A stretch of 64,000 bases of DNA. Origin: an uncultured Gammaproteobacteria bacterium. GTDB taxonomy: Bacteria; Patescibacteriota; Microgenomatia; 2-02-FULL-39-11. The translations under genes and the position numbers were made by a program. Under the pieces are notes generated by a model that did no database searches, had not been told where the DNA came from, and saw only the letters and a list, made by a program, of their open reading frames with translations. This document shows positions 8,817-48,039 of this stretch, in pieces. Every line of letters starts with the position of its first letter. Positions within the stretch are counted from its first letter, which is position 1. The DNA lies in contig CAYIFB010000001.1 in assembly GCA_964362665.1 (NCBI GenBank), forward strand, positions 48,308 through 112,307. The letters run 5' to 3'.

Positions 8817-8828
8817 AAAACTGTCAAA

Positions 8829-9311: not shown

Positions 9312-9312
9312 T

Positions 9313-9846: not shown

Positions 9847-9848
9847 AA

Positions 9849-29469: not shown

Positions 29470-30644
29470 TTAAAAATATGAACATAGCTCTTATTGTTTA
29501 CTCAAATTATTCAAGCGATGCCAGGGTGAGAAGATATGCAGAAGTTTTGGCAGAAGACGGTCATCTGGTTGATGTAATCTGTCTAAGGGAAAATTATATA
29601 CCCAAAGAGAAGAAAATAAGACTGATTCAATATCCTATCAGACGCATAAGGCGTGGAATATCTTGGTACGTTATTGATTATTTTATGTTTTTTCTATACT
29701 CGTTTTTTATTTTGTCAATAAATTATTTTTCTAAAAAATATAAAATTGTACACGTCAATAATATGCCTGATTTTCTAGTTTTTACCGCAATCGTTCCCAA
29801 AATTCTTGGAAGTAAAATAATTCTGGATATGCACGATCCCATGCCGGAATTATATATGTCTAAATTCCATGTGAATGATAATAATATTTTTGTAAGATTA
29901 TTGAAGATTGTAGAGAAAACAGCTTTTCTTTTTGCTGATAAAGTTATAACTGCAAATGATGTATTTCGACAGCTATTTTTATCAAGAAATGATATTACAG
30001 ATAACCATATAAGCGTGATCTTAAACTGCCCGGATAATAATATTTTTAATAATAATTTTAAAAGAATAATAAAGGATAAATATTTTAACGTAATCTATAT
30101 GGGAACAGTTGATGATAGATTCAGAATTGATTTGACTATTAGTACAATGCCAGTTCTTATCAAAAAAATTCCTAATATCCGATTGGTAATTATTCCAAAA
30201 ATTGAGGAAGAAGGAATATATTTTCAAAATCTGAAAAAATCGGTAACAGAGAAAAAACTTGAAAATTTTGTGATATTTAAAAAACCTTTACCTTTAGAAA
30301 AGATTGCTGAAGAATTAAAATCCGCTGATATAGGCATAGTTTTAGCGGATAATAATGTTTTTACCGATAAGATATTTCCGGTAAAATTATTGGAATTTAT
30401 TCAGATGAAAATACCTATTATTGCTACAAAAACAAAATTGCTAGGTAAATATTTTACTGATAAAGAAATATTTTTTCTCCCGGAGAATTCGGTTGATGAA
30501 TTTTCAAAAGCGGTGACTGCATTATTTAACAACCCTCGTTTGCGAGGTCAACTAACCACGAACGCCAATAAATATTTATTGGTTAATAATTGGCGAAATG
30601 AACAAGTGAAATATATTAAAATCGTACGAAATTTAATTGAATAA
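29460..30644 (+). CDS. Glycosyltransferase (GT-B, GT4-like)
   Basis: Two Rossmann-like halves. The C-terminal half contains the EX7E-like region (…LPLEKIAEELKSADIGIVL…KLLEFIQMKIPIIAT). Confidence 0.5.
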   Translation: MVLIKNMNIALIVYSNYSSDARVRRYAEVLAEDGHLVDVICLRENYIPKEKKIRLIQYPIRRIRRGISWYVIDYFMFFLYSFFILSINYFSKKYKIVHVNNMPDFLVFTAIVPKILGSKIILDMHDPMPELYMSKFHVNDNNIFVRLLKIVEKTAFLFADKVITANDVFRQLFLSRNDITDNHISVILNCPDNNIFNNNFKRIIKDKYFNVIYMGTVDDRFRIDLTISTMPVLIKKIPNIRLVIIPKIEEEGIYFQNLKKSVTEKKLENFVIFKKPLPLEKIAEELKSADIGIVLADNNVFTDKIFPVKLLEFIQMKIPIIATKTKLLGKYFTDKEIFFLPENSVDEFSKAVTALFNNPRLRGQLTTNANKYLLVNNWRNEQVKYIKIVRNLIE

Positions 30645-30660
30645 TATTATATATACTTGA

Positions 30661-32010
30661 ATGCAAAAGAAGTATTTTTATCTCGGGCTGATTTTATTTT
30701 TTTTAATTACCTACCTCTCTCCCGGCAAAGTCATCTATTTCAGTGCGTATCTCGTCAGCACTTTTTTTTTCTATTTGGCGACCAAAAAAATTACCGAGAG
30801 TTTGATTTATTCTCTGATATTATCTTTATTTTTTGATTCTAGTATTGGAGCGAGTCTGTTTGCTATGCAGCCTCCCGAATGGAATTTGGGATCGGGTTAT
30901 GCGATTACACCGACTACATTAATATTACTCTCATTAATACCTTTTTCATTTAACAAAACATTCAGTAAGTTAAAAGCGCCGGATATAATAATTGCGATAT
31001 TTTATTGTATTAGTGTTTTTAATGTTTTCCTATTCCCCTATCCCAATTCCTTTTTCGGTTTAATCGGAATTAGTGAGTTTGTACTTTTATATTATATTTT
31101 AAGGATACATGTGAAAATTGAGCAGTTTGATTTTATAAAAATTATCCTTCTTAGTCTTTTGTGTTTTCAGATAACGATTGCAACAATACAGATTGTCAGA
31201 GGTACTTCCGCCGGATTTTTAGCTGAATCATCAAATCTAGAGCGCCCATACGGATATACGGCCAGCGAAGATGTAAATATTTTCCGTGTACCGGGAACCT
31301 TCGGACATCCGAATTTTCTGGCTTCATTTCTTCTGTTGGGAGTTTCATTTGTATTATTTAGTTCCCCTAGTAGTATTTTATATCTAGGATTGGGTGCATT
31401 AGATTTGGTGGTATTAATCTTTACTTCCAGCCGTGCAGCCTGGTTTATCTTTATGCTTATTATTGCTTTTTGGATTTGGTATCAGTTAAAAATTCTAAAA
31501 AAATCGGATAAAATAAGAACCACTTTAACTATATTTATTTTAATTATTGTTTTATTAATTCCTTTTATTATTACCCGCCTCAACACATTACCGCAGGCAT
31601 TTGATCCAAATGGGTCTGTAGATGTGCGCTATCAACTTAATAATGAAGCAATTAACATCATTTCCAAAAATCCAATAACCGGTGTCGGATTAAATAGAGC
31701 GATAGAATTTTACAGTAATTTTTTTTCGCCGGATGCCCTTCTTAGTATTATTGATGGTAGTTTTTATAAAATACATAATACTATTTTGGAAATTAGCACG
31801 GAGATAGGGGTTTTTGGAGGAATTATATTTTTAGCATTTTTCTTTACCATTTTTAAAACCGGGCTGAAATATATTCATGAAAAAAATAATTTTAAAATAG
31901 CTGCAACGATGGGACTTTTTGGAGTATTTTGTATTTCACTTTTTAATCCTTTCTTTCACACCCCACAAATGCGCTATCTTTTCCTCCTCTCCGCGATGAT
32001 TCTGGCGTGA
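30661..32010 (+). CDS. O-antigen ligase/polymerase family membrane protein (Wzy_C-like)
   Basis: About 10 TM helices with a large periplasmic loop (…RVPGTFGHPNFLASFLLLG…) typical of the O-antigen ligase family. Its last ~70 nt are re-used downstream in two partial copies. Confidence 0.6.
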   Translation: MQKKYFYLGLILFFLITYLSPGKVIYFSAYLVSTFFFYLATKKITESLIYSLILSLFFDSSIGASLFAMQPPEWNLGSGYAITPTTLILLSLIPFSFNKTFSKLKAPDIIIAIFYCISVFNVFLFPYPNSFFGLIGISEFVLLYYILRIHVKIEQFDFIKIILLSLLCFQITIATIQIVRGTSAGFLAESSNLERPYGYTASEDVNIFRVPGTFGHPNFLASFLLLGVSFVLFSSPSSILYLGLGALDLVVLIFTSSRAAWFIFMLIIAFWIWYQLKILKKSDKIRTTLTIFILIIVLLIPFIITRLNTLPQAFDPNGSVDVRYQLNNEAINIISKNPITGVGLNRAIEFYSNFFSPDALLSIIDGSFYKIHNTILEISTEIGVFGGIIFLAFFFTIFKTGLKYIHEKNNFKIAATMGLFGVFCISLFNPFFHTPQMRYLFLLSAMILA

Positions 32011-32318: not shown

Positions 32319-32533
32319 AGATTCCACCTCTTTCCTATAGGGACGTAATACACAAAGCAAGAAAAGCAGGGTTCGTATTCAGAAGAGCAACTGGCGGGAC
32401 TCATGAAATTTGGTGGAATGAGAAGAAAAGGAAAACCGCAGTTATTCCTCACCATCATGAAATCCGTCCCGGAACCATTAGAAGTATTATCAAACAACTG
32501 GGGATAACCGATAAAGAATTCTTAAAATTATGA
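32315..32533 (+). CDS. hicA: HicA-family mRNA interferase toxin
   Basis: GFVFRRATGGTHEIWWNEKKRKTAVIPHHHEIRPGTIRSIIKQLGI matches HicA. ATGA overlap with hicB. Confidence 0.7.
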   Translation: MKIPPLSYRDVIHKARKAGFVFRRATGGTHEIWWNEKKRKTAVIPHHHEIRPGTIRSIIKQLGITDKEFLKL

Positions 32534-33148: not shown

Positions 33149-33412
33149 ATGCTCAACTGGAATGTTGATGAGAAAAGGTTTATAAAAGAAGACCCGGAGG
33201 GGTATAAACGCTGGAGGATCGAACAACTGATAAATTACGGTCTGGATGGAGAAAAACTGGACAAGGATGAGGTAAAAAAAGCCTGGCCCATGATAAAAGA
33301 GAACATTGATCCGTATAAGCGCAGGCTTATAGAATATATCTTATGGGAAAAACTATACTTACTCCCACTCAACGGAAATTTCTGGAGTGCATCCAGAATT
33401 ACGAAGAGATAA
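33149..33412 (+). CDS. Small partner protein of the nucleotidyltransferase module (putative antitoxin-like). Paralog of 10457-10741.
   Basis: See the alignment under the 10457-10741 feature. It overlaps the downstream gene by 70 nt in a different frame, as in the first copy. Confidence 0.5.
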   Translation: MLNWNVDEKRFIKEDPEGYKRWRIEQLINYGLDGEKLDKDEVKKAWPMIKENIDPYKRRLIEYILWEKLYLLPLNGNFWSASRITKR

Positions 33413-33990
33413 CCCGCTGGTTTTATCTGACCGGTGGAACTGCTCTTTCGGAAGATATTGATCTGTTTTCTACAAGTGAAGTAGATGATAAGACTATTGA
33501 TAAATTTTTGGATGATATTCGTCCACAACTGCAAATTACTTCAATAAAAAAAGACCATATTTCAGGATTGTTCTTATATAAATTAACTTTTTCAAACGGA
33601 GAAACATTGAAAGTTGATTTTAATGAATATGCATTTGAACCAATTGAAAAAAGTACTAAAAATTTCGGGAAATTACAGGTAGACAGTTTCTACGATATAG
33701 CAGTAAATAAAGCCTATACCATATCGGGACGCTTTAAATCTCGTGATTTTATCGATCTCTATTTTATCCTCATTCGAGAGGAATTCTCTTTTGAACAAAT
33801 TCTTTCGCGTGTACCAGATAAATTTGGAGTGCAGATCGATTCAGTATTTTATGCAAGCCAACTTCTTCGGGCAGGTGATTTGCCAAAAGATTATCCCCCT
33901 ATGCTTGTCCCTTTTGAATTTGATGATATGGTGAAGTTTTTTGTGAAAGAAGCAAAACGATTGGGAAAAAAGGCTTTTAAGAACCCTTGA
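33343..33990 (+). CDS. Nucleotidyltransferase, AbiEii/AbiGii-toxin-like. Paralog of 9849-10565.
   Basis: WFYLTGGTALSEDIDLFS nucleotidyltransferase motif. Similar length and architecture to the first copy. Confidence 0.6.
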   Translation: MGKTILTPTQRKFLECIQNYEEITRWFYLTGGTALSEDIDLFSTSEVDDKTIDKFLDDIRPQLQITSIKKDHISGLFLYKLTFSNGETLKVDFNEYAFEPIEKSTKNFGKLQVDSFYDIAVNKAYTISGRFKSRDFIDLYFILIREEFSFEQILSRVPDKFGVQIDSVFYASQLLRAGDLPKDYPPMLVPFEFDDMVKFFVKEAKRLGKKAFKNP

Positions 33991-34014: not shown

Positions 34015-34532
34015 TGAAGTTAGCGACTATGTATCGAACCCTAAAAATTCTATTTGTAATTTTGTTGGTTCTGACGATTACAGAAGCAGGATATTATATT
34101 TACGTATTAAAATATCCTATTAAACCAGCCCAAAATAACCCCTCATTAGCTCCAAGTATATCTTCCGATCAAAAAATTGACAGGAGTGCATATCTTTTTG
34201 ACCAGATTACAGCCTCTGATCCTTATCAGTTCGTAAAACACTTCGGTATGAATGATAATCAGAATTTATATTTAATTCTTGAGCAAAAAGGAATTGCACA
34301 GATAGATAAATCCGATGACGGTAAAGACATATATCTCACCATACAAAACGATCAGCATAAAAAAATCGTAAGCATTAATATAGTCAATTCCCTGAAAATT
34401 ACGAAGATAGTAAAGGGTGAAAAAACTCCGATTAGCAAGGACCAAATTAAAACCGGAGACAATATTCTTTATACCCTGAAAGGTGATTTAGTTGACCAGA
34501 AAAAAAGCAGTGGAGAAATTACAATCTTATGA
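33987..34532 (+). CDS. Cassette 1: membrane-anchored/exported protein. The probable start is the ATG at 34029 (MYRTLKILF…).
   Basis: N-terminal TM/signal anchor LKILFVILLVLTITEAGYYIYVL, then PIKPAQNNPSLAPSISSDQKI. The first ~50 aa are near-identical, at DNA level too, to the 36317 paralog. The C-terminal domains differ. Confidence 0.5.
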   Translation: MISDLIIFILKLATMYRTLKILFVILLVLTITEAGYYIYVLKYPIKPAQNNPSLAPSISSDQKIDRSAYLFDQITASDPYQFVKHFGMNDNQNLYLILEQKGIAQIDKSDDGKDIYLTIQNDQHKKIVSINIVNSLKITKIVKGEKTPISKDQIKTGDNILYTLKGDLVDQKKSSGEITIL

Positions 34533-34729
34533 GAAAAAATCCCTTTGCTCCTTATTGTAAGCCCAAAATTAATACGAAAAAGATCAACTTTCTTGTTATG
34601 TTTGGGCATTCATTTCCTGATGAGAACGGTTATCTAGCACAAGTTTGTGATTGTGGAGCGCCATGCTACGGCAATGTTATAGGGAGACCCTGTTATTGTC
34701 TGAATGGGACGGGGGGATGTTCTAGCTAG
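34529..34729 (+). CDS. Cassette 1: Cys-rich small peptide (candidate precursor or secreted disulfide-rich peptide), translationally coupled (ATGA) to the upstream gene
   Basis: 66 aa. Leader-like N-terminus KPKINTKKINFLVMF shared with the 36879 paralog. Core VCDCGAPCYGNVIGRPCYCLNGTGGCSS has 6 Cys, is Gly-rich and ends in C-terminal Ser-Ser. Confidence 0.5.
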   Translation: MRKNPFAPYCKPKINTKKINFLVMFGHSFPDENGYLAQVCDCGAPCYGNVIGRPCYCLNGTGGCSS

Positions 34730-34731
34730 GT

Positions 34732-35547
34732 CTAAGCACTGTTGTTTATCTTAAGTAATTCGCATATCTTTTCTTCATTTTTGGCAAAATAAAGAAGATA
34801 AAACCTCGGATTAGACTTGACGAAATTCATAATCGTCTTGATCTGACTTCTCATATCTTTTTCAAGACTCCATGTTTGGGCTGAAATTAGAGTGATAATT
34901 TTATTATTATTTTTCAACTGTATCAACCGGCAATCTTTTGCTTTACGCAGAAAATAAATGCTTTCAATAGGATATCGTTTAAAAGTTTTTTTGATCCATT
35001 TGTACTTTTCCACCACCGGTGATTGATAAAAATAGAAACTATTATTTTCCTTAATGATAATACCGCTTTCATCAACAAGGGGGATCGACTGTCTTCTCGT
35101 CAGATTTAAGATGGTCGATTTGCCGGCTCCGGAAGGGCCGACAAACACATGTGCTTTTCCGTCAATTTCTACAGCTGAACAGTGAAGAAAGAAACCATTA
35201 TTCTTTAAAAGAGCATTCTGAACGACGCGAAGTAAAAGCGTGATGAAGTGATTGATACTGATATGAAGATAGGTGAAAACCTTATTATTCTTCACATGAT
35301 AAAAAGCGAGAGTGAAATAAGGCAGTTTTAGCTTTTTTTGAAACACGTAAGGGGCAGAAGGTAAAAAGTTTATTTCTGTGAGGCATTTTTTGCCTCTTTG
35401 ACCTTTTACAATAAAACCCGCATAAATATTGTTAATTTTTTCCCGGATATTATTTACCGGATTTTTACCCTGCGTCGGGGCAAACTTCAGTTTGATGAGA
35501 AAACCTGCAATGTAAAAATACAAAACATTTTTTTTCATATACTTCAA
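34732..35547 (-). CDS. HPr-kinase-C-terminal-domain-like P-loop kinase (HprK-related / lasso-peptide-kinase-like)
   Basis: FFLHCSAVEIDGKAHVFVGPSGAGKSTILNL resembles the HprK active-site P-loop (G-x-SG-x-GKS). Convergent with, and 2 nt from, the peptide gene. Confidence 0.6.
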   Translation of the reverse strand: MKYMKKNVLYFYIAGFLIKLKFAPTQGKNPVNNIREKINNIYAGFIVKGQRGKKCLTEINFLPSAPYVFQKKLKLPYFTLAFYHVKNNKVFTYLHISINHFITLLLRVVQNALLKNNGFFLHCSAVEIDGKAHVFVGPSGAGKSTILNLTRRQSIPLVDESGIIIKENNSFYFYQSPVVEKYKWIKKTFKRYPIESIYFLRKAKDCRLIQLKNNNKIITLISAQTWSLEKDMRSQIKTIMNFVKSNPRFYLLYFAKNEEKICELLKINNSA

Positions 35548-35745
35548 GATTGAGAAGATATAAAAAATACAGTATTATCCTCTTGATATATGAATAAAAT
35601 CATCAGGATGATTAGATTTAAGCGTAAATTCTGTATTAAAGCAACTGGTAACAGCATGCTGCCTCTTCTTTTCTCGGGAGACGTATTATACCTAAAAAAA
35701 TTCACTTAAAGACGTCTGAAAAAACCTATATTCCCCTTTTTCTTT

Positions 35746-36228
35746 TTATATAATATTTAAGTCATCACCCAGCGGATGGTATTCGTCTTTGAGTAAATTT
35801 AAAATAGTGGTTTTTCCTGCACCTGAATTACCCAAGAAAACATAAGCTTTATGATTGATACATACTGAAGATGCATGCAGAAGAAATCCTCCTTCTTTTG
35901 CCAAAATGTCTTCGATAGCGTCGCGAAAAAGCAGGTTAAACTCCCCCAGATTCACGTGATAGTAAATTTCGCGATTATTGGAATCTATTTTTCTGCATGC
36001 CTTAAGGTAAATAAATTCATTTTCCCGGTAAAAGATACTGGGTTCACGAAAATCCACAAAGTGGATGATATGTAGAGGATTTTTTTTAGATATCGAAAAA
36101 TTCTTCAAATTAAAGATGACGTTTTCGATAAATTTCTCCCGATGCAGGATAAAAATGCTTTCATGAAACCTGAATTCCAGCACCATCCCTGCAATTTTGA
36201 AAAAATATGAAGAAGTCCCCTTGTTCAT
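35746..36228 (-). pseudogene. Truncated HprK-like kinase paralog (P-loop present, C-terminal ~110 aa missing or frameshifted)
   Basis: GFLLHASSVCINHKAYVFLGNSGAGKTTILNL, then a stop after …PLGDDLNII. A shifted frame just downstream translates …GEYRFFQTS…, which resembles the …YYGFQSP… block of the full-length paralogs. Confidence 0.5.
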
Positions 36229-36269
36229 AATTGTTAATGATACATCAAACGATAGTTTTTCATCAAAAC

Positions 36270-36298
36270 TTGACTAGAATCAATTTTGCGGATATTCT
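36270..36298 (+). promoter_or_regulatory. Sigma70-like promoter candidate (TTGACT-17-TATTCT) for cassette 2
   Basis: Read from the sequence. ATG at 36317. Confidence 0.3.
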
Positions 36299-36316
36299 TA
36301 ATAATAGATAGACATT

Positions 36317-36877
36317 ATGTATAAACTATTGAAAATATTATTCGTCTTATTATTGTTTCTGACGATTACAGAAGCAGGATATTATATTTACGTATTAAAA
36401 TATCCTATTAAACCAGCCCAAAATAACCCCTCATTAGCTCCAAGTATATCTTCCGATCAAAAAATTGAGCAGTTGAGAAGTAGCTCATCTATAGTTCCTC
36501 AAGTTACTCAAACAAACTTGCCAACCATACAGCCTCTCATTTCTTCTGATTCGATCACGTATCTTCAGAATATGAAGTTTGTGAAGAATAAAACAATTGT
36601 TGTCACCATCGAAGAGTCAGGATATGTTGATACTATTCAGCTTCAACCAAAGGGGAGTGCAACAGAATTAAAATTAGTTGATGAAAATGGAACCATAATA
36701 TCTGCAATTTCTAGGGATCTTGAATTTTGGAATAAAAATCTATTTAAAAAGATAGCAAACAGTGATGTTCCTTTCAGCATAACTGATCTTAAAAAAGGAG
36801 ACTTTATCATGCATTCATATCAAATGAACATAACAGACAATACAGATAATCATAAGTATGTAGTTATATCAAAATAA
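36317..36877 (+). CDS. Cassette 2: membrane-anchored/exported protein, paralog of 34029-34532
   Basis: MYKLLKILFVLLLFLTITEAGYYIYVLKYPIKPAQNNPSLAPSISSDQKI… The stretch 36360-36471 is ~100% identical in DNA to 34069-34180, then diverges. Confidence 0.5.
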   Translation: MYKLLKILFVLLLFLTITEAGYYIYVLKYPIKPAQNNPSLAPSISSDQKIEQLRSSSSIVPQVTQTNLPTIQPLISSDSITYLQNMKFVKNKTIVVTIEESGYVDTIQLQPKGSATELKLVDENGTIISAISRDLEFWNKNLFKKIANSDVPFSITDLKKGDFIMHSYQMNITDNTDNHKYVVISK

Positions 36878-36878
36878 T

Positions 36879-37085
36879 ATGAAGAATAAACAAATATATA
36901 AAAAGCCAGGTATCAAGGTTAAAAAAATTCATTTTAATGTTCTCTTTACCAATTTTAACGATAATTCTTTACTAGCACTAGTAGGACCGGGTCAACTATG
37001 TTGTGGAAATCCTGAACTCTATTGTCCTAGTTCCTGTAGTGGTGGTTGTAGTGTTTGTCCACAAGATGGGTACTGTGCATGCTAG
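36879..37085 (+). CDS. Cassette 2: Cys-rich small peptide, paralog of 34529-34729
   Basis: 68 aa. Leader KKPGIKVKKIHFNVLFTNF. Core GQLCCGNPELYCPSSCSGGCSVCPQDGYCAC has 8 Cys. Its start is 2 nt after the upstream stop. Confidence 0.5.
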   Translation: MKNKQIYKKPGIKVKKIHFNVLFTNFNDNSLLALVGPGQLCCGNPELYCPSSCSGGCSVCPQDGYCAC

Positions 37086-37900
37086 TTTTTAACCCTCTTT
37101 CCCATTAGAGTCACGAGCTTGTTTCCCTTATTAAATGAGAGAGAATAAAAATGATTGTGTCTTTGAATAAATGCAAATGCATTTTTTGTCGGCGGTTTCG
37201 TATGAGGGTCAAAAGTGAGAAGCTGTGCGGATAGAAGTGTTATTATTCTGGTAAGATCTTTGATCTTTGTTGTCCGGTAAAATTTTGCTTTGCGTAAAAA
37301 AAATATTCTTCCGACGAGATAATGCTGTTGAGTTTTTTTTATCCAGTCATTTTTTTCCCTGACTGGAGACTGGAATCCATAATATTTTTCTCCTATTTTT
37401 CTTACAATGAGGATGTCATCTGAAAAAGCCTGGAAACGCGGGTGTAAAAGTTTCATAGCCGTAGATTTTCCGCCCTCTGATTTAGCACAAAAGAGGAAAA
37501 GACTATTGTTTACGATTGATGCTGAAGTATGCAGAAGGAATCCGTCAGATCTTGAAGCAAGTGTTTGAAGTGCCGTAAGCAATATTAAATTAAACTGGTT
37601 TATGCTTATATGTTGGAATGAAAGAATTTTATATCTGTGTAATTTAAAAAAATGAAGCAGTCCTAAATTAGCATCTTTTGTTTTTCTCGTGAATATCGAT
37701 GGAAAATGTTGGAATAGATGAATGGTAAAATCTATTTTCGAAAGTTTCTTATTAGTTAGAAAAGCTGAATAGTGTTTTTTGATGTCATTCGATAGAGATT
37801 GATTTATCCAAGAGTCATGAATTTCTCTTTCTTGAGTAGGATTTAGAATAATCCTTATATTAAAGCCTCCGGTATAAAGGTCTATCCTCTGTGTTTTCAT
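37082..37900 (-). CDS. HPr-kinase-like P-loop kinase, paralog of 34732-35547
   Basis: GFLLHTSASIVNNSLFLFCAKSEGGKSTAMKLL. C-terminal block …YYGFQSPVREKNDWIKKT aligns with …FYFYQSPVVEKYKWIKKT. Convergent with the peptide gene, which overlaps its 3' end (ATGA-style). Confidence 0.6.
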   Translation of the reverse strand: MKTQRIDLYTGGFNIRIILNPTQEREIHDSWINQSLSNDIKKHYSAFLTNKKLSKIDFTIHLFQHFPSIFTRKTKDANLGLLHFFKLHRYKILSFQHISINQFNLILLTALQTLASRSDGFLLHTSASIVNNSLFLFCAKSEGGKSTAMKLLHPRFQAFSDDILIVRKIGEKYYGFQSPVREKNDWIKKTQQHYLVGRIFFLRKAKFYRTTKIKDLTRIITLLSAQLLTFDPHTKPPTKNAFAFIQRHNHFYSLSFNKGNKLVTLMGKRVKN

Positions 37901-39254
37901 GGATCGTATTATACCTCATACAACCCATTTTCTGATTCTGTTTCAGTGGTATACTTTCTCTGTTGTGACAGCGAACCATCTTCTTATTTTAAATAAGCTT
38001 CAGAAGAAACGGGCTTTCTGGCTTAAATGCGAGGGCATAAGCATGCTTCCGCTGCTTCGTCCCGGCGATATATTATTCTTTAAGAAAATCAAGTTTCATC
38101 AGACGAAGATAAATGAGATTATACTGGTAAAAAAGAGTAATAAAGAGATAGTCCATAGAGTTATTTATAAAAAAAACAATTATCTGGTTACTAAAGGTGA
38201 TCACAATCCTTTGTCAGACGGGAGGACAAATCCAAACGACGTTTTCGCGAAGGTAATCGCAGTAAAGAGAAGTAATAATAAATTCGATTTAGAAAGTTTA
38301 TATCTTTTCCAGTCAACTCTTTACTTTCAGGAAATAGTGAAGGTTAATAAAGCTTTCAGGAAAGAAAAAATTGCTTTTGTCTTTCTGAAAGGCCTTCCTG
38401 TACATCTATTTTATGAAAAAAAACATCCCCGTCGAATATATGCTGACAGCGATATTCTTATTGATCAGACTGATTACGAGAAAGTTGAAAAGGTTTTTAA
38501 GAGGAATGGATTTAAAAAAGTTGATGCTTCCTATTCTAACCTCCATAAACTATTAAAGGATAAACCCACGGAAGTAAGTTTTGTGAAAAAAGTAAATAAT
38601 TTTCCAGTAGTCTTTGACATCCATTTTGAGCCGGTATTTCTAATGAATCAGCTTGGGAAGCTTGATGCTTTGTATCCTGAGAAATTCATGAGGCAGTTGA
38701 CTAGTGATTTCTTACAGACGAAACTAGCAATAAAAGTACAAGGAGAACAATTCTTTATACTTGATATTTCCTACTTAATACTTTACTTAGCTTTGCATTT
38801 TTTCCATCATAACTATCGGGGAATATTCCGGTTACATTTTTTAGATCAGGTGATAAGATTTCGCGCCAGAGAATTAGATTTGGATAAATTGATATCGGAT
38901 ATTAATAAATATCAGGTGCAAAACTTTGTTTATCCGGTATTTTGGTTTTTACAGAAATACTACTCGACTCCGGGAGCCAGTCTGGTATTAAAAAGTATAA
39001 ATATCAAGTCTAAAGAGCTAAAATATATAAAAGAAAATATCTTAAATATCAATATTTTTGATGATGAGTCGAGGGTTCAGGCGGGAATTGCCAGATTTAA
39101 AAATATTTTTCAGCTCTCCCCTTCCCCGTTTTGGAAGAAACTGACACTTATCTTTAATCTGCAGATAATTTACAGCGTTTTCTGGGTTGGGTATTTGAAG
39201 ATTAAAAATTATCACAATTCCCGGAATTTTAATCCGTTTAATTCCGGACAATAA
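37899..39254 (+). CDS. Fusion protein: N-terminal SipW/Sec11-type (S26B) signal-peptidase-like domain plus C-terminal NTP_transf_5-like 'uncharacterised nucleotidyltransferase' domain
   Basis: Peptidase boxes CEGISMLPLLRPGDILFF (Ser), EIVHRVIY (His, ER-type) and TKGDHNPLSDGR. C-terminal domain IAFVFLKGLPVHLFYEKKHPRRIYADSDILIDQTDYEKVEKVFKRNGFKK resembles PF14907-type nucleotidyltransferases seen near lasso/HprK-related loci. The tail reads through a hairpin repeat. Confidence 0.5.
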   Translation: MDRIIPHTTHFLILFQWYTFSVVTANHLLILNKLQKKRAFWLKCEGISMLPLLRPGDILFFKKIKFHQTKINEIILVKKSNKEIVHRVIYKKNNYLVTKGDHNPLSDGRTNPNDVFAKVIAVKRSNNKFDLESLYLFQSTLYFQEIVKVNKAFRKEKIAFVFLKGLPVHLFYEKKHPRRIYADSDILIDQTDYEKVEKVFKRNGFKKVDASYSNLHKLLKDKPTEVSFVKKVNNFPVVFDIHFEPVFLMNQLGKLDALYPEKFMRQLTSDFLQTKLAIKVQGEQFFILDISYLILYLALHFFHHNYRGIFRLHFLDQVIRFRARELDLDKLISDINKYQVQNFVYPVFWFLQKYYSTPGASLVLKSINIKSKELKYIKENILNINIFDDESRVQAGIARFKNIFQLSPSPFWKKLTLIFNLQIIYSVFWVGYLKIKNYHNSRNFNPFNSGQ

Positions 39255-39298
39255 TATATAAAATTCCCGGAATTTAATCCGTTTAATTCCGGGAATTA
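39216..39298. terminator. Two tandem copies of a ~33-bp palindromic element (ccggaatt-N-aattccgg) between convergent genes. Candidate bidirectional terminator or regulatory hairpins.
   Basis: aattcccggaattttaatccgtttaattccgga (39216-39248) and aattcccggaatttaatccgtttaattccgggaatt (39263-39298). Both convergent ORFs end in …NSRN encoded by the palindrome. Confidence 0.4.
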
Positions 39299-39573
39299 AC
39301 TATAATTTTTTTCGCGAAAAGTTCTTTTTCCAGACCCAAGTAATCCTTTTGTGCTCGAATATTGGAGATTTTATATTTTTTTATCATCAGTTCGATTATC
39401 TCCTCCTTACTTAAACCCTTCTTGATTTTGTCAAAGATAAAAGAGGCTGTTTGGTTGAAGGTATAGAGCTGAGATTTCTCACCGTCAAAAATCGTAGTTT
39501 TATTTCCCAGTTTCTGGACGATAAAACCTTTGTTTATTTTATATTTCACCGTTGCGGATTTGGATGTTTTCAT
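39283..39573 (-). CDS. PqqD-family protein (RiPP recognition element / peptide chaperone-like)
   Basis: KGFIVQKLGNKTTIFDGEKSQLYTFNQTASFIFDKIKKGLSKEEIIELMIKKYKISNIRAQKDYLGLEKELFAKKII fits the PqqD pattern (hxxhxxgxxxhlxxxtgxhxxLNxtaxxIWxLldG…eihxxlxxxYdh…dvxxfhxxLxxxxhI). Confidence 0.6.
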   Translation of the reverse strand: MKTSKSATVKYKINKGFIVQKLGNKTTIFDGEKSQLYTFNQTASFIFDKIKKGLSKEEIIELMIKKYKISNIRAQKDYLGLEKELFAKKIIVNSRN

Positions 39574-39587
39574 CTAATATTTAAACA

Positions 39588-40415
39588 ATGAAAATAAAAA
39601 AACTTCTTTCCAGATACAAGACTTTGAATACGTTAATCGTTCTAACTCTACTCCTTCTTGGCTTTGCAATTCTTTATTTTCTCTACTACCGCCAGAGAAG
39701 TCAAGCATTTTTATATGCATCAGTCACTCTCATCAGACCGACTAATATTCCAATTAATGCGGCTTTTAATTGGGTGCCTTACTGGATTGCCAATTCCATC
39801 AATATAAATGACGTAGAAAAAAGCACTTTGGGAAGTCTTAACGCGATAGTTGTGGATAAAACAGCATATGAAGGTCAGGGGTACGGACAATATGTGTATT
39901 TACTTTTAAAAATTAACTCCGTCAAAGACAGATCGGGAGTTTATCTTTATAAAAATAAACCTTTGGTGGTCGGATCCATACTTGACTTAAAACTTAGTAA
40001 CACCCAAACACAAGCGATGGTGACTTATCTTGGTACAATGCCTCCCGTCTATAAATATAAGAAAATAATTTTGTCATTGAAAGGCAGGAGTTGGGAATCA
40101 TGGGTGGTGGACAGCATAAAAGAGGGCAGTGAAATCAAAGACTCCAAAGGGAAAACGATTGCTAAAATTATAGACTTGAAGTCAGGACCGGCGGAAGTCC
40201 GTTCTGATTCCTCTTTGGGGCAGGCAAAAGTTTCGTATGACCAGACTAGAAAAGATTTTACTATCAAGGCGGAAATGATTGTCCGTGATGATAATGGTAT
40301 ATATTACTTTGAAGAATTCCAAAAAGTTAAAGTTGCCGAAGGTCTGTATTTGACTTTTGCACAAAACAGCCTCTCACCTCAAATTTCATCGATTGAATCT
40401 GTGACAGATTTATAA
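39588..40415 (+). CDS. Hypothetical secreted/membrane-anchored protein
   Basis: N-terminal TM LIVLTLLLLGFAILYFLYY. No recognisable domain. Confidence 0.35.
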   Translation: MKIKKLLSRYKTLNTLIVLTLLLLGFAILYFLYYRQRSQAFLYASVTLIRPTNIPINAAFNWVPYWIANSININDVEKSTLGSLNAIVVDKTAYEGQGYGQYVYLLLKINSVKDRSGVYLYKNKPLVVGSILDLKLSNTQTQAMVTYLGTMPPVYKYKKIILSLKGRSWESWVVDSIKEGSEIKDSKGKTIAKIIDLKSGPAEVRSDSSLGQAKVSYDQTRKDFTIKAEMIVRDDNGIYYFEEFQKVKVAEGLYLTFAQNSLSPQISSIESVTDL

Positions 40416-40474
40416 ATTCATTTTTATCGTATTATTTTAATTCTCCACCGGTAATGCTAGTATAATTATTAACA

Positions 40475-42208
40475 ATGCTTTTTAATTTAGGTTTATTGTC
40501 CTTATTTTTTCTTCCTGTAATCGAATCATTCAGACGGGAGGCGGGATTATTTTTTCTCTGTCTGGGTGCCTTACTGCTGGCTTTAAATCCTCAACAATCC
40601 AAAAAAACTCAATTGGATTTTTCAGATCTTTTGTGGTTTATCTTATTGGTTGTTTTCAGCCTCTCATTATTTCATACCGCGTCCTACATCAGGAGTTTCA
40701 GCGAGTTTCTGCGCTATCTGTCATATTTTTTGATTCTTGTGTCAATTAAAAATCATCATGATCACACTAGTCTTTTAAAAAGTTTTTATTTACCCATGAT
40801 TGTAGTAAATTCCATAATTCTATCTCTTCTTAGCTGGTGGTATTTGATTCCGGTAGTTCACTTCTATACTCCTCCACCCTTAAATCTATATTTTGCCAAT
40901 TTCGGCCACAACAGACTTTCCGCCATACTTATTTTTGCCCTACCGATTACAGCAATATTTTCTACGCTAAGTTATAAGAAGAAATATCTTTATAAACTTT
41001 TAACAGTGTTTCTGTTTATCTCCCTGATTTTTACAGTTGCCCGCGGGGCATTTCTAGAATTGTCTTTTTCGTCACTCATCGTGCTTTTGTTATATTTTAA
41101 AAGAAATAGTGTAGATGCCCAAAATCCGGAGAAAAGACAATTGATGTCTTATGTGAGCTTTTTCAGCCTGATCACCATAATATTTCTGGTATTTAATTTC
41201 ATCTATTCAAATTTTTTCAATCCCTCAAACTTTCCTTTAAATATCCGCAATACTTATAAACCGGTTATGGGTGAATTAAGGCTTGAGTATATTCGGCAGG
41301 CGGTATCTGAATTTGCCAGACACCCGCTTCGGGGTACTGGACTTGATACTTTTGTATATGTCTCAAGAATTAATCAACTTCGTGGCAGTCAAAGTTCAGA
41401 TTATGTTCATAACCAATTTCTGGAAATTTTTACGGAAACAGGAATTTTTGGCGGTATTATATTTGCGGTATTAATGTGTTATTTATTGGTCAAATCATAT
41501 TCTCATAACAAGAAGTTACAGGGTCCAGATAAAATTTATCATTTGGCTGTAATGATTGGGCTTTTGGCGTCATACTTTTCTTCTCTCATTGATTACGATT
41601 GGCAGTACATCTCTATTTTTTTCATCTTATTCCTCGGTCTTATTCTGACATCCGATCATGAAGATCAGCCAAAATACGATATGCACCAAAATGGTTGGAG
41701 GATTTTTATATTTTTATATTTTCTGGCTTTTCTGGTCAAGTTTATTTTACTAAAAAACGTTCCTGAATATTCTAAGAAAATTGATCAGCTGATACAAAAA
41801 AACGAATTGGTTGCGGCAGAAAATTTGGCACTGCGATTTCATAAACTGGATCAAGGCGGCCAACCCGCGATTGTACGGCTTATTGAAATCTCACAAAAAT
41901 CAGGAAACGCAGAGAAGAACCATTATTGGAATGAACAGCTTATAAAAACCAGTCCTTATGATCAGGATTATACCCGCAGAGAAGATTTCCGCCTGTATCT
42001 CACAGACATGCAAAAAAAAGTTGTCCTTGGCAATGCGAATGATGCCATGAGTATTTTCAAGACATTAAAATCAAAATATCCGGATCTTTATCAGCAGATC
42101 AATAGTGACGCTTATTTAAATAAAATCATTCTGGCTCTAAATAATAATAATAATTCTGAGGCTTTGGAAATTTTCCAATCCTTAATTATTTCAGGTATGA
42201 AAATATAG
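40475..42208 (+). CDS. O-antigen-ligase-family membrane protein with C-terminal TPR-like soluble domain
   Basis: Multi-TM with a Wzy_C-like loop (…RHPLRGTGLDTFVYVS…HNQFLEIFTETGIFGGIIFAVLM). C-terminal ~170 aa helical repeats. Confidence 0.5.
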   Translation: MLFNLGLLSLFFLPVIESFRREAGLFFLCLGALLLALNPQQSKKTQLDFSDLLWFILLVVFSLSLFHTASYIRSFSEFLRYLSYFLILVSIKNHHDHTSLLKSFYLPMIVVNSIILSLLSWWYLIPVVHFYTPPPLNLYFANFGHNRLSAILIFALPITAIFSTLSYKKKYLYKLLTVFLFISLIFTVARGAFLELSFSSLIVLLLYFKRNSVDAQNPEKRQLMSYVSFFSLITIIFLVFNFIYSNFFNPSNFPLNIRNTYKPVMGELRLEYIRQAVSEFARHPLRGTGLDTFVYVSRINQLRGSQSSDYVHNQFLEIFTETGIFGGIIFAVLMCYLLVKSYSHNKKLQGPDKIYHLAVMIGLLASYFSSLIDYDWQYISIFFILFLGLILTSDHEDQPKYDMHQNGWRIFIFLYFLAFLVKFILLKNVPEYSKKIDQLIQKNELVAAENLALRFHKLDQGGQPAIVRLIEISQKSGNAEKNHYWNEQLIKTSPYDQDYTRREDFRLYLTDMQKKVVLGNANDAMSIFKTLKSKYPDLYQQINSDAYLNKIILALNNNNNSEALEIFQSLIISGMKI

Positions 42209-46982: not shown

Positions 46983-47006
46983 TAAATAGAGTGACTTATT
47001 TTTAAA

Positions 47007-48035: not shown

Positions 48036-48039
48036 AATT

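What the first reader, a model, noticed from the sequence alone, without database searches (positions are those of the whole stretch)
34529..37085. Two paralogous Cys-rich small peptides with a shared leader-like N-terminus; one ends in Ser-Ser
The two peptides share an N-terminal K-rich leader with the motif KKI(N/H)F(L/N)V(M/L)F. Both have a hypervariable Cys/Gly-rich C-terminal core, with 6 Cys in VCDCGAPCYGNVIGRPCYCLNGTGGCSS and 8 Cys in GQLCCGNPELYCPSSCSGGCSVCPQDGYCAC. A conserved leader joined to a variable core is the hallmark of RiPP precursors and bacteriocins. Each is translationally coupled to an upstream exported protein and abutted by a kinase gene. A C-terminal Ser is what lasso-peptide HprK-like kinases phosphorylate. 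Alternatively these are disulfide-rich secreted toxins or signals. Nothing similar is obviously a known family.
Basis: partly seen in the sequence, partly recalled or inferred. Interest (0 to 1): 0.72.

Follow-up and report, generated by a model that had tools for sequence, protein, structure and literature searches.

The report
LPP-like RiPP precursors in Microgenomates
The two small Cys-rich ORFs are real precursor peptides of a leader-guided peptide-modification gene cassette that is conserved in about 70 species of ultra-small Microgenomates (CPR) bacteria and is a new variant of the "linear polyphosphorylated peptide" family described in Bacillota in 2026.

Summary
Two ORFs (34529-34729, 66 aa; 36879-37085, 68 aa) share a Lys-rich N-terminus and have 6-Cys and 8-Cys tails. 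Each is coupled to an upstream membrane-anchored protein and abuts a convergent HprK/ScmC-like P-loop gene.

They are not orphans. I collected 74 distinct relatives. All carry the leader KK-Y-x-K-P-x-I-K-x-K-K-I-K-L-N-F-F, then usually a hydrophobic-hydrophobic-Ala junction, then a hypervariable tail.

The cassette is E->A-> <-K SN-> <-B: exported protein, precursor, kinase, SipW-type signal peptidase fused to NTP_transf_5, and a PqqD recognition element. It recurs in about 70 species-representative genomes, nearly all Microgenomates, inside polysaccharide loci.

The enzyme set matches, model for model, the LPP family of Bacillota (Popov et al. 2026): TIGR02228, TIGR04249/04352, NTP_transf_5 and a discrete RRE. 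That family was reported as restricted to Bacillota.

Differences here are no ABC exporter, a peptidase-NTase fusion, an extra E gene, a different extended leader, and Cys-rich cores.

The Ser-Ser ending is probably incidental: the ortholog ends Ser-Gly, and only 8 of 66 relatives end in Ser.

Verdict: a new variant of a known kind. Its chemistry and function are untested.

The parts
34029..34532 (+). E1: membrane-anchored exported protein. It has an N-terminal TM helix and a beta-rich extracytoplasmic domain, and is translationally coupled to A1.
   Evidence: ORF; gene in L001. Homologous genes lie directly upstream of precursors in L007, L009, L011, L017 and L018 and upstream of 28 of 39 precursors overall. 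No Pfam family. In the AF2 model of its paralog E2 (built from the E2/E1 alignment) only the N-terminal TM helix is confident.
34529..34729 (+). A1: precursor peptide, 66 aa. Predicted leader aa 1-37 (34529-34639, ...Y9-C-K-P12-K-I...GYLA). Predicted core aa 38-66 (34640-34726, QVCDCGAPCYGNVIGRPCYCLNGTGGCSS, 6 Cys).
   Evidence: Ortholog in L018 has all 6 Cys conserved and pN/pS 0.39. Member of the leader family. The leader/core boundary is inferred.
34732..35547 (-). K1: HprK/ScmC-like P-loop protein, the putative precursor kinase, convergent with A1.
   Evidence: Best NCBIfam hit is TIGR04249 ScmC at 8e-09; TIGR04352, TIGR04355 and TIGR00679 hit weakly. PF27840 ScmC is precomputed for it. 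His / Walker A / DD constellation is conserved.
35590..35709 (+). S': 39-aa remnant of an S26 peptidase-NTase gene (MNKIIRMIRFKRKFCIKATGNSMLPLLFSGDVLYLKKFT).
   Evidence: Aligns with the N-terminus of the intact fusion, including the G-x-S-M-L-P active-site motif.
35746..36228 (-). K': a truncated third ScmC-like kinase gene (160 aa; the C-terminal ~110 aa are missing). Probably a pseudogene left by a deletion that joined S' to K'.
   Evidence: Alignment with K1 and K3; TIGR04249 hit.
36317..36877 (+). E2: paralog of E1, coupled to A2. The first ~163 nt are 88% identical to E1, and the rest has diverged (40% aa identity overall).
   Evidence: (repeat D1).
36879..37085 (+). A2: precursor peptide, 68 aa. 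Predicted leader aa 1-33 (36879-36977, ...Y7-K-K-P10-G-I...NSLLA). Predicted core aa 34-68 (36978-37082, LVGPGQLCCGNPELYCPSSCSGGCSVCPQDGYCAC, 8 Cys).
   Evidence: A related peptide in L014 (IKKITFNLLF...NSLLA|DCGSEGC...PCYCLGSNCAC) also has 8 Cys and also ends in CAC. Family membership.
37082..37900 (-). K3: ScmC/HprK-like P-loop protein convergent with A2 and only 31% identical to K1.
   Evidence: TIGR04249 hit. AF2 model has pLDDT 88. Foldseek top PDB hits are PEP carboxykinase and HPr kinase/phosphatase. A profile of the family hits HprK 1ko7 beyond the P-loop.
37899..39254 (+). SN: a SipW/archaeal-type signal peptidase I domain (G-I-S-M-L-P, V-H-R-V, T-K-G-D-H-N-x3-D) fused to an NTP_transf_5 nucleotidyltransferase. 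The first ~25-30 codons of the ORF are probably not translated.
   Evidence: PF14907 at 3.5e-22 and PF00717. TIGR02228 at 2.5e-13, 50.2 bits against a cutoff of 51.85. The same fusion occurs in L009, L013 and L015, where the N-terminus is shorter and has no TM segment, and in ~70 species genomes.
39283..39573 (-). B: discrete PqqD-family RiPP recognition element.
   Evidence: PF05402 at 3.2e-08. Best NCBIfam models are the lasso PqqD chaperones. Best PDB sequence matches are lasso B1 proteins TfuB1 (6jx3) and PbaB1 (9x90). Present in 27 of 29 well-flanked related loci.
27733..32010 (+). Upstream polysaccharide context: glutamine-hydrolysing AsnB-type amidotransferase (27733-29469), GT4 glycosyltransferase (29460-30644) and a Wzy_C O-antigen-ligase-family protein (30661-32010).
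   Evidence: The amidotransferase passes TIGR01536 and fails the lasso cyclase model (279 bits against a cutoff of 525).
39588..42208 (+). Downstream polysaccharide context: DUF4330-like protein (39588-40415) and a second Wzy_C-family membrane protein (40475-42208). The same neighbours occur in related loci.
   Evidence: DUF4330 and Bac_transf flank the cassette in L051 and L061.

Best explanation
A1 and A2 are precursor peptides of an RRE-dependent RiPP pathway. The pathway is a Patescibacteria (Microgenomates) variant of the LPP / phosphorylated-lasso-peptide machinery.

Proposed mechanism:
1. The PqqD protein B binds the invariant Y-x-K-P-x-(I/V) leader motif as an added beta-strand.
2. The ScmC/HprK-like kinase encoded tail-to-tail with each precursor (K1 for A1, K3 for A2) phosphorylates a Ser or Thr of that precursor. 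The site is unknown.
3. The cytoplasmic SipW-type Ser/His/Asp peptidase domain of SN removes the leader. The most likely site is after the conserved hydrophobic-hydrophobic-Ala junction: ...GYLA|QVC... in A1 and ...SLLA|LVG... in A2.
4. The fused NTP_transf_5 domain decorates the phosphate further, for example with sugar or nucleotidyl groups.
5. The 6 or 8 Cys of the released 29-35-residue cores then form disulfides or bind metal. The window has no YcaO or radical-SAM enzyme, although relatives do.
6. The co-translated membrane-anchored E protein is a cognate partner of each core, acting in immunity, surface retention or hand-over.

The cassette sits in a cell-surface polysaccharide locus, so the product probably acts at or on the envelope.

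What is shown computationally: gene content, family membership of each enzyme, conservation of leader, junction and architecture, and purifying selection. What is inferred: every chemical step, the cleavage site and the biological role.
For: Family and leader/core split:
- I collected 74 distinct precursors. Y and P are invariant, the flanking K/I/K/K/I/N/F positions are strongly conserved, and the tails are hypervariable (15% Cys, 16% Gly, 11% Ser).
- The [Y/W]xxPx[L/V/I/A/F/Y] motif is the documented binding site of discrete lasso and LPP RREs.
- The window's PqqD is most similar to lasso B1 proteins. It keeps the K-D-hydrophobic-x-x-L segment that aligns with TfuB1 R-D-I-A-A-L. By pattern it resembles the LppB E-D70-I-E-A-F74 segment, but LppB itself was not retrieved or aligned here.

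Enzymes:
- The enzyme models are the same ones that define LPP clusters: TIGR02228 for SpI, TIGR04249/TIGR04352/TIGR04355 for the 'HprK kinase', and NTP_transf_5.
- The kinase model has a PEPCK/HprK fold and a conserved His, Walker A and DD.
- The S26 domain carries the ER-type S...HR...GDxN...D motifs, like LppS S29/H68/D93.
- LppS prefers a hydrophobic residue at -3 and a small one at -1. That fits the hydrophobic-hydrophobic-Ala junction found in about 60 of 74 precursors.

Conservation of the cassette:
- In 29 species-level loci with at least 6 kb on both flanks, PqqD is present in 27, a kinase in 24, a precursor in 16 and E in 16.
- The order E->A-> <-K SN-> <-B is the same as in the window.
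- The number of kinases tracks the number of precursors.
- The cassettes are embedded in polysaccharide genes, as LPP clusters are.
- A1 and its ortholog give pN/pS = 0.39.
Against: - There is no biochemical or expression evidence for these peptides.
- The kinases match HprK-type models only weakly (35 bits against a 125-bit cutoff for TIGR04249), so kinase activity is inferred from fold and motifs.
- No Ser or Thr is conserved at a fixed position. A1 and A2 lack Ser/Thr in the first three core residues, where LppA is phosphorylated.
- The LPP extended motif (P-x9-F-x-[T/A], FET|xxS) does not map onto this leader, so the cleavage site is uncertain. In the A1/L018 ortholog pair the junction Ala shifts by one position.
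- No exporter is encoded in the window or in any of 71 related loci, so how or whether the product leaves the cell is unexplained.
- Eleven of 66 relatives have no Cys, so Cys chemistry is not the defining feature.
- The LPP end product and function are themselves unknown.
Confidence: 0.72

Rival explanations
1. The peptides are unmodified, disulfide-rich secreted bacteriocins or signals. The Lys-rich N-terminus is only an export or propeptide signal, E is the immunity protein, and the neighbouring kinase, PqqD and NTase genes belong to the surrounding polysaccharide pathway rather than to the peptides.
For: Six is the modal Cys count in the family, and even counts predominate (38 even against 17 odd). 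A cognate membrane protein is co-translated with each peptide and has diverged with it, as immunity genes do. The locus is full of envelope genes.
Against: - The N-terminus has no Sec-type hydrophobic core. There is no double-Gly site, no C39 peptidase and no ABC exporter.
- The leader carries the RRE-binding YxxPx[I/V] motif, and a discrete RRE is present in 27 of 29 loci.
- The kinase is glued tail-to-tail to the peptide in 21 of the 22 cases with a kinase within 60 nt, and its copy number follows the peptide's.
- Relatives add YcaO/dehydrogenase or radical-SAM genes next to the same leader.
Confidence: 0.1
2. The peptide is not a free natural product. It is a building block or cap of a cell-surface glycoconjugate. 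Phospho-Ser made by K is extended by the NTase domain, and the peptide is then joined to or primes a polysaccharide handled by the flanking Wzy_C, Bac_transf and GT4 enzymes. E retains it at the membrane.
For: The cassette is consistently embedded between Wzy_C, Bac_transf, GT4 and DUF4330 genes in the window and in relatives. LPP and paeninodin clusters also sit in capsule loci and are co-induced with an EPS gene. In pseudomycoidin the homologous NTase adds hexoses to the phosphate. No exporter is present.
Against: This is purely contextual. Synteny among related Microgenomates could explain the shared neighbours. In UBA1406 the kinase-peptide pair and the SN gene lie on different contigs, away from obvious polysaccharide genes. 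Hypervariable cores are more typical of conflict or signalling molecules than of structural units.
Confidence: 0.12
3. The kinase starts a lanthipeptide-like route. Phosphorylated Ser/Thr is eliminated to dehydro-amino acids, which the many Cys attack to give thioether rings.
For: The cores combine many Cys with several Ser/Thr (3 in A1, 5 in A2). Class III/IV lanthipeptide synthetases use phosphorylation followed by elimination (established knowledge).
Against: No lyase or cyclase domain was detected in the cassette. The characterised homologous kinases leave stable (poly)phosphate on Ser. Subfamilies without Cys keep the kinase (L009).
Confidence: 0.04
4. The ORFs are chance reading frames in intergenic DNA.
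For: They are short, and neither matches any Pfam or NCBIfam family.
Against: There are 74 homologues in the same genomic position across dozens of species, with invariant Y/P. The ortholog pair gives pN/pS = 0.39 with all Cys conserved. Start codons are coupled to the upstream stop codons.
Confidence: 0.01

Closest known systems
Linear polyphosphorylated peptides (LPP) of Bacillota: lppA-K-B-S-D-N (Popov et al., Nat Commun 2026, PMC13381572)
   Same: - Same enzyme families by the same models: SipW-like SpI (TIGR02228), a discrete PqqD RRE, an 'HprK kinase' scored as TIGR04249/TIGR04352/TIGR04355, and NTP_transf_5.
- No lasso cyclase.
- Precursors have a conserved N-terminus containing YxxPx[V/I] and highly variable C-termini; some precursors are long (35-200 aa there).
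- Embedded in polysaccharide loci.
- Several precursors per cluster.
   Different: - Host phylum: Microgenomates/Patescibacteria here, while LPP was stated to be restricted to Bacillota.
- The peptidase and NTase are fused into one protein.
- No MsbA-like exporter in any of 71 loci.
- There is an extra conserved membrane-anchored E gene coupled to each precursor.
- One kinase per precursor, arranged convergently.
- The leader is KKYxKPxIKxKKIKLNFF followed by a ~15-20-residue spacer and a hydrophobic-hydrophobic-Ala junction, instead of YxxPxVLxHQxIxFET|xxS.
- Cores are often Cys-rich.
- Some relatives add YcaO/dehydrogenase, radical SAM, or C-terminal Hint/S74 self-cleaving domains.
Phosphorylated and phosphoglycosylated lasso peptides (paeninodin, pseudomycoidin)
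   Same: An HprK-like kinase acting on the leader-bearing precursor, a PF14907-type nucleotidyltransferase (sometimes fused to the leader peptidase), a PqqD B1 protein, and a [Y/W]xxP leader motif.
   Different: There is no Asn-synthetase-like cyclase: the only AsnB homolog in the window is a genuine glutamine-hydrolysing enzyme. There is no B2 cysteine protease. The C-terminal Ser that those kinases modify is not conserved here.
SynChlorMet (SCM) cassette protein ScmC, TIGR04249 / PF27840
   Same: It is the best-scoring named model for all three window kinases, and SCM cassettes also contain a PqqD homolog (cassette composition is from my memory of the TIGRFAMs description).
   Different: Scores are far below the equivalog cutoff (35 bits against 125). 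No radical SAM/SPASM pair is present in the window.
Linear azol(in)e peptides / YcaO-dehydrogenase RiPPs
   Same: Relatives with the same leader have YcaO and a nitroreductase-type dehydrogenase next to Gly/Cys/Ser-rich cores (L011, L017, L051).
   Different: The window has neither enzyme, so A1 and A2 are not expected to carry azoles.

Membership tests
LPP (linear polyphosphorylated peptide) BGC | Archaeal/SipW-type signal peptidase I (TIGR02228) with a Ser/His/Asp catalytic set, acting as leader peptidase | tested here: met
   The SN N-terminal domain hits TIGR02228 at 2.5e-13, 50.2 bits, just under the 51.85 cutoff. The motifs G-I-S-M-L-P, V-H-R-V and T-K-G-D-H-N-P-L-S-D are conserved in four homologs and parallel LppS S29/H68/D93. 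Activity was not tested.
LPP (linear polyphosphorylated peptide) BGC | Discrete PqqD-type RRE | tested here: met
   PF05402 at 3.2e-08. Lasso PqqD chaperone models are the best NCBIfam hits. Nearest PDB sequences are TfuB1 and PbaB1. LppB itself (9x8z) was not retrieved at E<=10.
LPP (linear polyphosphorylated peptide) BGC | HprK-like kinase (TIGR04249/TIGR04352/TIGR04355 in the authors' table) | tested here: met
   K1, K' and K3 hit TIGR04249, and K1 also hits TIGR04352, TIGR04355 and TIGR00679. All scores are well below the equivalog cutoffs. The HprK/PEPCK fold is confirmed.
LPP (linear polyphosphorylated peptide) BGC | NTP_transf_5 nucleotidyltransferase | tested here: met
   PF14907 at 3.5e-22, 79.6 bits against a cutoff of 31.2. 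Here it is fused to the peptidase.
LPP (linear polyphosphorylated peptide) BGC | MsbA-like ABC exporter in the core cluster | tested here: not met
   No ORF combines Walker A with the LSGGQ signature in the 64-kb window or in 71 related loci with up to 8 kb of flank. This was a motif scan only.
LPP (linear polyphosphorylated peptide) BGC | Precursor with an N-terminal [Y/W]xxPx[V/L/I] RRE-binding motif and a variable C-terminus | tested here: met
   Y and P are invariant, and I/V/L at +5 occurs in 73 of 74 precursors. Tails are hypervariable.
LPP (linear polyphosphorylated peptide) BGC | Extended LPP leader consensus YxxPxVLxHQxIxFET|xxS (P-x9-F-x-[T/A] cleavage box, Ser at core position 3) | tested here: not met
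   The consensus here is YxKPxIKxKKIKLNFF. Position P+10 is Asn, and no F-x-[T/A] occurs in register. A1 and A2 have no Ser/Thr at the first three residues after the predicted junction.
LPP (linear polyphosphorylated peptide) BGC | Polyphosphorylation of a core Ser, and RRE-dependent cleavage by the SpI | not testable with these tools
   This needs co-expression and mass spectrometry.
Lasso peptide BGC | Asn-synthetase-like macrolactam cyclase (C protein) | tested here: not met
   The only homolog (27733-29469) starts with MCGIVG, passes TIGR01536 (463 bits against 267) and fails the lasso cyclase model NF033535 (279 bits against 525). None is present in the cassette.
Lasso peptide BGC | B2 transglutaminase-like cysteine leader peptidase | tested here: not met
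   No such domain appears in Pfam or NCBIfam scans of the cassette proteins.
SynChlorMet (SCM) cassette | ScmC equivalog together with two radical SAM/SPASM proteins | tested here: not met
   TIGR04249 scores are 18-35 bits against a cutoff of 125. No CxxxCxxC-containing ORF of 100 aa or more exists in the window.
YcaO-dependent azol(in)e RiPPs | YcaO cyclodehydratase (with or without a dehydrogenase) in the cluster | tested here: not met
   Absent from the cassette proteins scanned in the window; ORFs outside 21981-45614 were not scanned against Pfam or NCBIfam. Present in relatives L011, L017 and L051.
Double-glycine (class II) bacteriocins | GG/GA leader cleavage motif with a C39-peptidase ABC exporter | tested here: not met
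   There is no GG at the leader/core junction; the junction is hydrophobic-hydrophobic-Ala. No ABC transporter is present.

The most novel reading that the evidence does not exclude
These cassettes may define a Patescibacteria-specific RiPP superfamily built on one leader and one shared processing module (PqqD plus a peptidase-NTase fusion). Interchangeable core chemistries would plug into it: a dedicated ScmC-type kinase per precursor, optional YcaO/dehydrogenase or radical-SAM enzymes, and in some members intein-like Hint or S74 domains that release the core's C-terminus by self-cleavage, possibly as an activated thioester. Because there is no exporter, a co-translated membrane partner is always present, and the cassette sits constantly in glycan-assembly loci, the products could be phospho-linked peptide decorations of the cell surface. 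They might take part in attachment of these episymbiotic ultra-small cells to hosts or in competition among them.
Probability: 0.2. Interest if true: 0.85.

Novelty: new variant of a known kind. Interest (0 to 1): 0.62.

Why it matters
CPR/Patescibacteria have tiny genomes and are generally thought to have little capacity for specialised metabolites. Here a multi-gene peptide-modification cassette, often duplicated, is retained in about 70 Microgenomates species.

- It extends a RiPP family that was described only in 2026, and reported as restricted to Bacillota, to a very distant lineage.
- It supplies 74 precursor sequences with a sharply defined leader. This gives a ready handle for genome mining and for heterologous reconstitution.
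- It ties ScmC-type proteins to identifiable precursor peptides in this lineage. As I recall the TIGRFAMs description of the SCM cassette, no precursor had been identified for ScmC there.
- The natural variants could help work out what the still-unknown LPP end product is and what it does at the cell envelope. Those variants include exporter-less cassettes, the peptidase-NTase fusion, Hint- or S74-terminated precursors, and YcaO add-ons.

Tried and rejected
- **Word-indexed peptide search.** A search with the two peptides alone found only themselves. The family became visible only through the neighbours of the kinase and then through a leader profile.
- **The search for related loci with kinase alignments.** It failed three times because no stretch was conserved enough. 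I used the peptidase-NTase fusion instead.
- **Literature searches.** 'ScmC/SynChlorMet' gave only unrelated acronyms. 'HprK-related kinase / exosortase' gave nothing. CPR RiPP searches found no description of this cassette.
- **Lasso peptide.** Rejected: no cyclase and no B2 protease.
- **Sactipeptide, ranthipeptide or azole peptide for the window's own peptides.** Rejected: no radical-SAM Cys motif in any window ORF of 100 aa or more, and no YcaO or radical-SAM domain among the cassette proteins scanned.
- **Sec signal peptide or double-Gly leader.** Rejected from the sequence.
- **C-terminal Ser as the conserved phospho-site.** Rejected.
- **Structure of the E protein.** Prediction from a 2-sequence alignment gave pLDDT 41, so no fold search was attempted.
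- **AFDB fold search of the kinase.** The library was unavailable.

Full report
**1.

The window contains ORF A1 (34529-34729, +, 66 aa) and ORF A2 (36879-37085, +, 68 aa).
- They are 43% identical. The identity is concentrated in the Lys-rich N-terminal half, including KKI(N/H)F(L/N)V(M/L)F. The tails have 6 and 8 Cys.
- The A1 ATG overlaps the stop of the upstream gene (ATGA) and has a GGAG 13 nt upstream. The A2 ATG is 1 nt past the upstream TAA.
- Each upstream gene (E1 34029-34532; E2 36317-36877) encodes a protein with an N-terminal TM helix and a beta-rich remainder. The first ~163 nt of the two genes are 88% identical, and the rest has diverged.
- Each peptide gene ends against the stop codon of a convergent ~270-aa P-loop gene (K1 34732-35547; K3 37082-37900).

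**2. What surrounds them.**

Pfam and NCBIfam give the following.
- K1, K3 and a truncated K' (35746-36228) hit TIGR04249 (ScmC) best. They hit HprK-related kinase A/B and HPr(Ser) kinase weakly.
- 37899-39254 combines an archaeal/SipW-type signal peptidase I domain (TIGR02228, 50.2 bits against a cutoff of 51.85; motifs GISMLP, VHRV, TKGDHNPLSD) with NTP_transf_5 (PF14907, 3.5e-22).
- 39283-39573 (-) is a PqqD protein whose best models are lasso-peptide PqqD chaperones. Its best PDB sequence matches are the lasso B1 proteins TfuB1 and PbaB1.

The kinase and the remnants:
- An AF2 model of K3 (pLDDT 88) matches PEP carboxykinase and HPr kinase/phosphatase structures.
- The kinase family conserves a His, the Walker A motif and a DD motif.
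- A 39-aa remnant of a second peptidase-NTase gene (35590-35709) and the truncated K' indicate a decayed additional cassette.
- Homologs of the fusion start ~25-30 residues later and have no TM segment. The peptidase is therefore probably cytoplasmic, and the long N-terminal extension of the window ORF is probably spurious.

The flanks are cell-envelope genes:
- a genuine glutamine-hydrolysing AsnB-type amidotransferase, which passes TIGR01536 and fails the lasso cyclase model;
- a GT4 glycosyltransferase, two Wzy_C proteins, a DUF4330 protein and sulfatases.

No ORF in the 64-kb window has an ABC-ATPase signature or a radical-SAM Cys motif.

**3. The peptides belong to a family.**

A word-indexed search with the two peptides found only themselves. 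I therefore went through the kinase.
- Its close relatives sit next to small ORFs with the same N-terminus in unrelated assemblies.
- A profile of the recovered peptides, searched exhaustively against 1.84 billion representatives, gave 37 hits at E<=1e-3.
- Independently, a genome scan seeded with the peptidase-NTase fusion returned about 70 species-representative genomes with a full-length fusion. Nearly all are Gottesman-, Roizman-, Levyi- or Beckwithbacteria or other Microgenomates/Patescibacteria.
- HMM scans of those loci recovered further precursors.

In all I have 74 distinct precursors.
- Anchored on Y..P, Tyr and Pro are invariant. The consensus is KK-Y-x-K-P-x-I-K-x-K-K-I-K-L-N-F-F.
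- About 15-20 weakly conserved residues follow. Then, in roughly 60 of 74, comes a hydrophobic-hydrophobic-Ala(/Ser) junction, often followed by Gln or Gly. After that the sequences become unalignable between subfamilies.
- Tails are 15% Cys, 16% Gly and 11% Ser. The modal Cys count is six, but 11 of 66 have none.
- Within a subfamily the core is conserved, for example YQC(I/V)GGPCDG.DNICNCSSPACREWP.C, IIAASGGCGCGSCK.VE.PV and PDTGSAGLKDR.
- A1 and its ortholog in L018 (kinase 66% identical) keep all six Cys and give pN/pS = 0.39.

**4. The cassette is conserved.**

- In 29 fusion-seeded loci with at least 6 kb on both flanks, PqqD is present in 27, a ScmC-like kinase in 24, and a precursor and an E gene in 16 each. 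The peptide HMM is insensitive, so 16 is a lower bound.
- The order E->A-> <-K SN-> <-B seen in the window recurs in L020, L028, L051 and L061. Some loci have tandem E-A-K duplications, and kinase number follows precursor number.
- Of 39 precursors, 22 have a kinase within 60 nt (21 convergent), and 28 have E directly upstream on the same strand.
- None of 71 loci has an ABC-ATPase-like ORF.
- Flanks repeatedly contain Bac_transf, GT4, DUF4330 and Wzy_C genes.

**5. Comparison with what is known.**

*Lasso peptides.* HprK-like kinases phosphorylate the C-terminal Ser of paeninodin-type precursors. A PF14907-type nucleotidyltransferase, sometimes fused to the B2 leader protease, adds hexoses in pseudomycoidin.

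*LPP.* Popov et al. (Nat Commun 2026, PMC13381572) described 'linear polyphosphorylated peptides' in Bacillota.
- The clusters lie in capsule loci and encode a SipW-like SpI (LppS), a discrete RRE (LppB), an HprK-like kinase (LppK), an NTP transferase (LppN) and an MsbA-like exporter.
- Precursors are 35-200 aa, with a conserved YxxPxVLxHQxIxFET|xxS N-terminus and variable C-termini.
- LppK polyphosphorylates core Ser3.
- LppS, presented with the precursor by LppB, cleaves after T-1, with F-3 in a hydrophobic cleft.
- The final product and its function are unknown, and the family was reported as restricted to Bacillota.
- Their supplementary table shows the 'HprK kinase' category is scored by TIGR04249, TIGR04352 and TIGR04355, the SpI by TIGR02228 and the NTase by NTP_transf_5. 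These are exactly the models that hit the window proteins.

*What matches.* The window cassette meets the enzyme-level definition and the [Y/W]xxPx[V/I/L] leader criterion.

*What does not match.* It fails two tested features: the exporter and the extended leader/cleavage box.

*Further differences.*
- The peptidase and NTase are fused.
- There is an additional E gene.
- Each precursor has its own convergent kinase.
- The leader is longer.
- The cores are Cys-rich.
- The host phylum is different.

I therefore file it as a new variant of the LPP kind rather than a plain member.

**6. Most likely mechanism (inferred).**

1. B binds Y-x-K-P-x-I. The PqqD keeps a K-D-hydrophobic-x-x-L segment that aligns with TfuB1 R-D-I-A-A-L. 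By pattern it resembles the LppB segment containing D70 and F74, which hold the leader Tyr and Pro.
2. The adjacent kinase phosphorylates its own precursor.
3. The S26 domain removes the leader, most plausibly after the hydrophobic-hydrophobic-Ala junction. That junction fits the LppS preference for a hydrophobic -3 and a small -1 residue. The predicted cores are QVCDCG...GGCSS (29 aa) and LVGPGQLCC...GYCAC (35 aa).
4. The NTase domain modifies the phosphate further.
5. The Cys residues then form disulfides or bind metal.
6. E, which is co-translated and has co-diverged, is a cognate membrane partner.

The weak points are these.
- No Ser/Thr position is conserved.
- The cleavage register is uncertain: the junction Ala shifts by one residue between A1 and its ortholog.
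- Export is unexplained.
- The Ser-Ser ending is probably incidental. The ortholog ends Ser-Gly, only 8 of 66 relatives end in Ser, and 17 end in Cys.

**7. Rivals.**

- Unmodified disulfide-rich bacteriocins with E as the immunity protein. This does not explain the RRE motif and the tightly linked enzymes.
- A peptide moiety of an envelope glycoconjugate. The context is suggestive but nothing was tested.
- Kinase-initiated lanthionine formation. No lyase or cyclase is present.
- Chance ORFs. Refuted.

**8. Verdict.**

The feature is real, conserved and interpretable.
- Novelty: a new variant of a known kind.
- Interest: moderate to high for RiPP and CPR specialists. It extends a just-described, functionally unsolved family to ultra-small bacteria and exposes unusual add-ons, namely the Hint and S74 self-cleaving precursors and the YcaO combinations.

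Noticed in passing
L016:3118-3702(-); L007:2691-3203(-); L022:1728-2324(+); L073:4716-5303(-); proteins P0057, P0063, P0076, P0084: Some precursors with the same leader continue, directly after the Cys/Gly-rich core, into a self-cleaving domain. In L016, P0063, P0076 and P0084 this is a Hint/intein-like module whose first residue is Cys (...GCGGCG|CFLKGT...). In L007 it is a Peptidase_S74 intramolecular-chaperone domain (...KGYC|SDKQLKKNI...). P0057 gives only sub-threshold Hint matches, and L022 and L073 were judged by eye. The core's C-terminus would then be made by autoproteolysis, possibly through a thioester.
   Followed up: partly
L011:3700-5728(-); L017:1000-3043(+); L051:4213-6242(+): In several related cassettes a YcaO cyclodehydratase and a nitroreductase-type dehydrogenase lie next to the E-A pair, with Gly/Cys/Ser-rich cores. 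In L007 a radical-SAM gene lies beside the kinase. The same leader therefore serves different core chemistries. The window has none of these enzymes.
   Followed up: partly
window 35590-36228: A 39-aa N-terminal remnant of a second peptidase-NTase gene (35590-35709, +) runs into a 3'-truncated third kinase gene (35746-36228, -). This looks like a deletion that removed most of one more cassette.
   Followed up: partly
window 34018-34180 and 36306-36468: A 163-nt direct repeat (88% identity) covers the start, TM helix and linker of the two E genes, while their extracellular parts are only ~30-40% identical. This suggests gene conversion or strong constraint on the anchor.
   Followed up: no
window 33149-33990 (+); also L009:849-1759, L012:7125-8449, L028:11392-12877: An AbiEii-family nucleotidyltransferase gene, with a small or medium upstream partner ORF, sits directly beside the cassette in the window and in three other loci. 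It may be a toxin-antitoxin pair that travels with the cassette, or it may simply be conserved synteny.
   Followed up: partly
window 32049-32533 (+): A HicB-like/HicA toxin-antitoxin pair with overlapping genes (HicA PF07927, 5e-16) lies just upstream of the cluster.
   Followed up: partly
window 39205-39314: Between the convergent SN and PqqD genes there is a tandem 45-nt imperfect repeat and a 33-nt inverted repeat built on AATTCCCGGAATTT. It may be a bidirectional terminator.
   Followed up: no
window 37899-37990: The SN ORF as listed starts 2 nt inside the divergent K3 start codon region and adds ~25-30 hydrophobic residues that are absent from all homologs. The real start is probably downstream at a non-ATG codon; the public gene call starts even later and would omit the catalytic Ser.
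   Followed up: partly
L009:7787-7981(-), P0052: One precursor subfamily has no Cys at all. Its conserved core motif is PDTGSAGLKDR, and it keeps the leader, the kinase and the E gene. In L009 a sortase gene follows the NTase gene.
   Followed up: no
window 42252-45614 (+) and 46995-49327 (+); 6900-9850 (+): A 1120-aa Pro/Thr-rich surface protein with Cys-rich modules and a weak ice-binding-like C-terminal domain is followed by ORFs whose sequences look like PilM/N/O-type type IV pilus genes. Several ORFs that look like pseudopilins lie further upstream. The pilus assignments come from reading the sequences only and were not checked against any family library.
   Followed up: no
L021, L024, L025, L027 and many others: Many TPA metagenome-assembled genomes that carry the cassette are titled 'uncultured Gammaproteobacteria bacterium'. 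Their gene content and close relatives are Microgenomates-like, so the titles look like placeholder mislabels.
   Followed up: no
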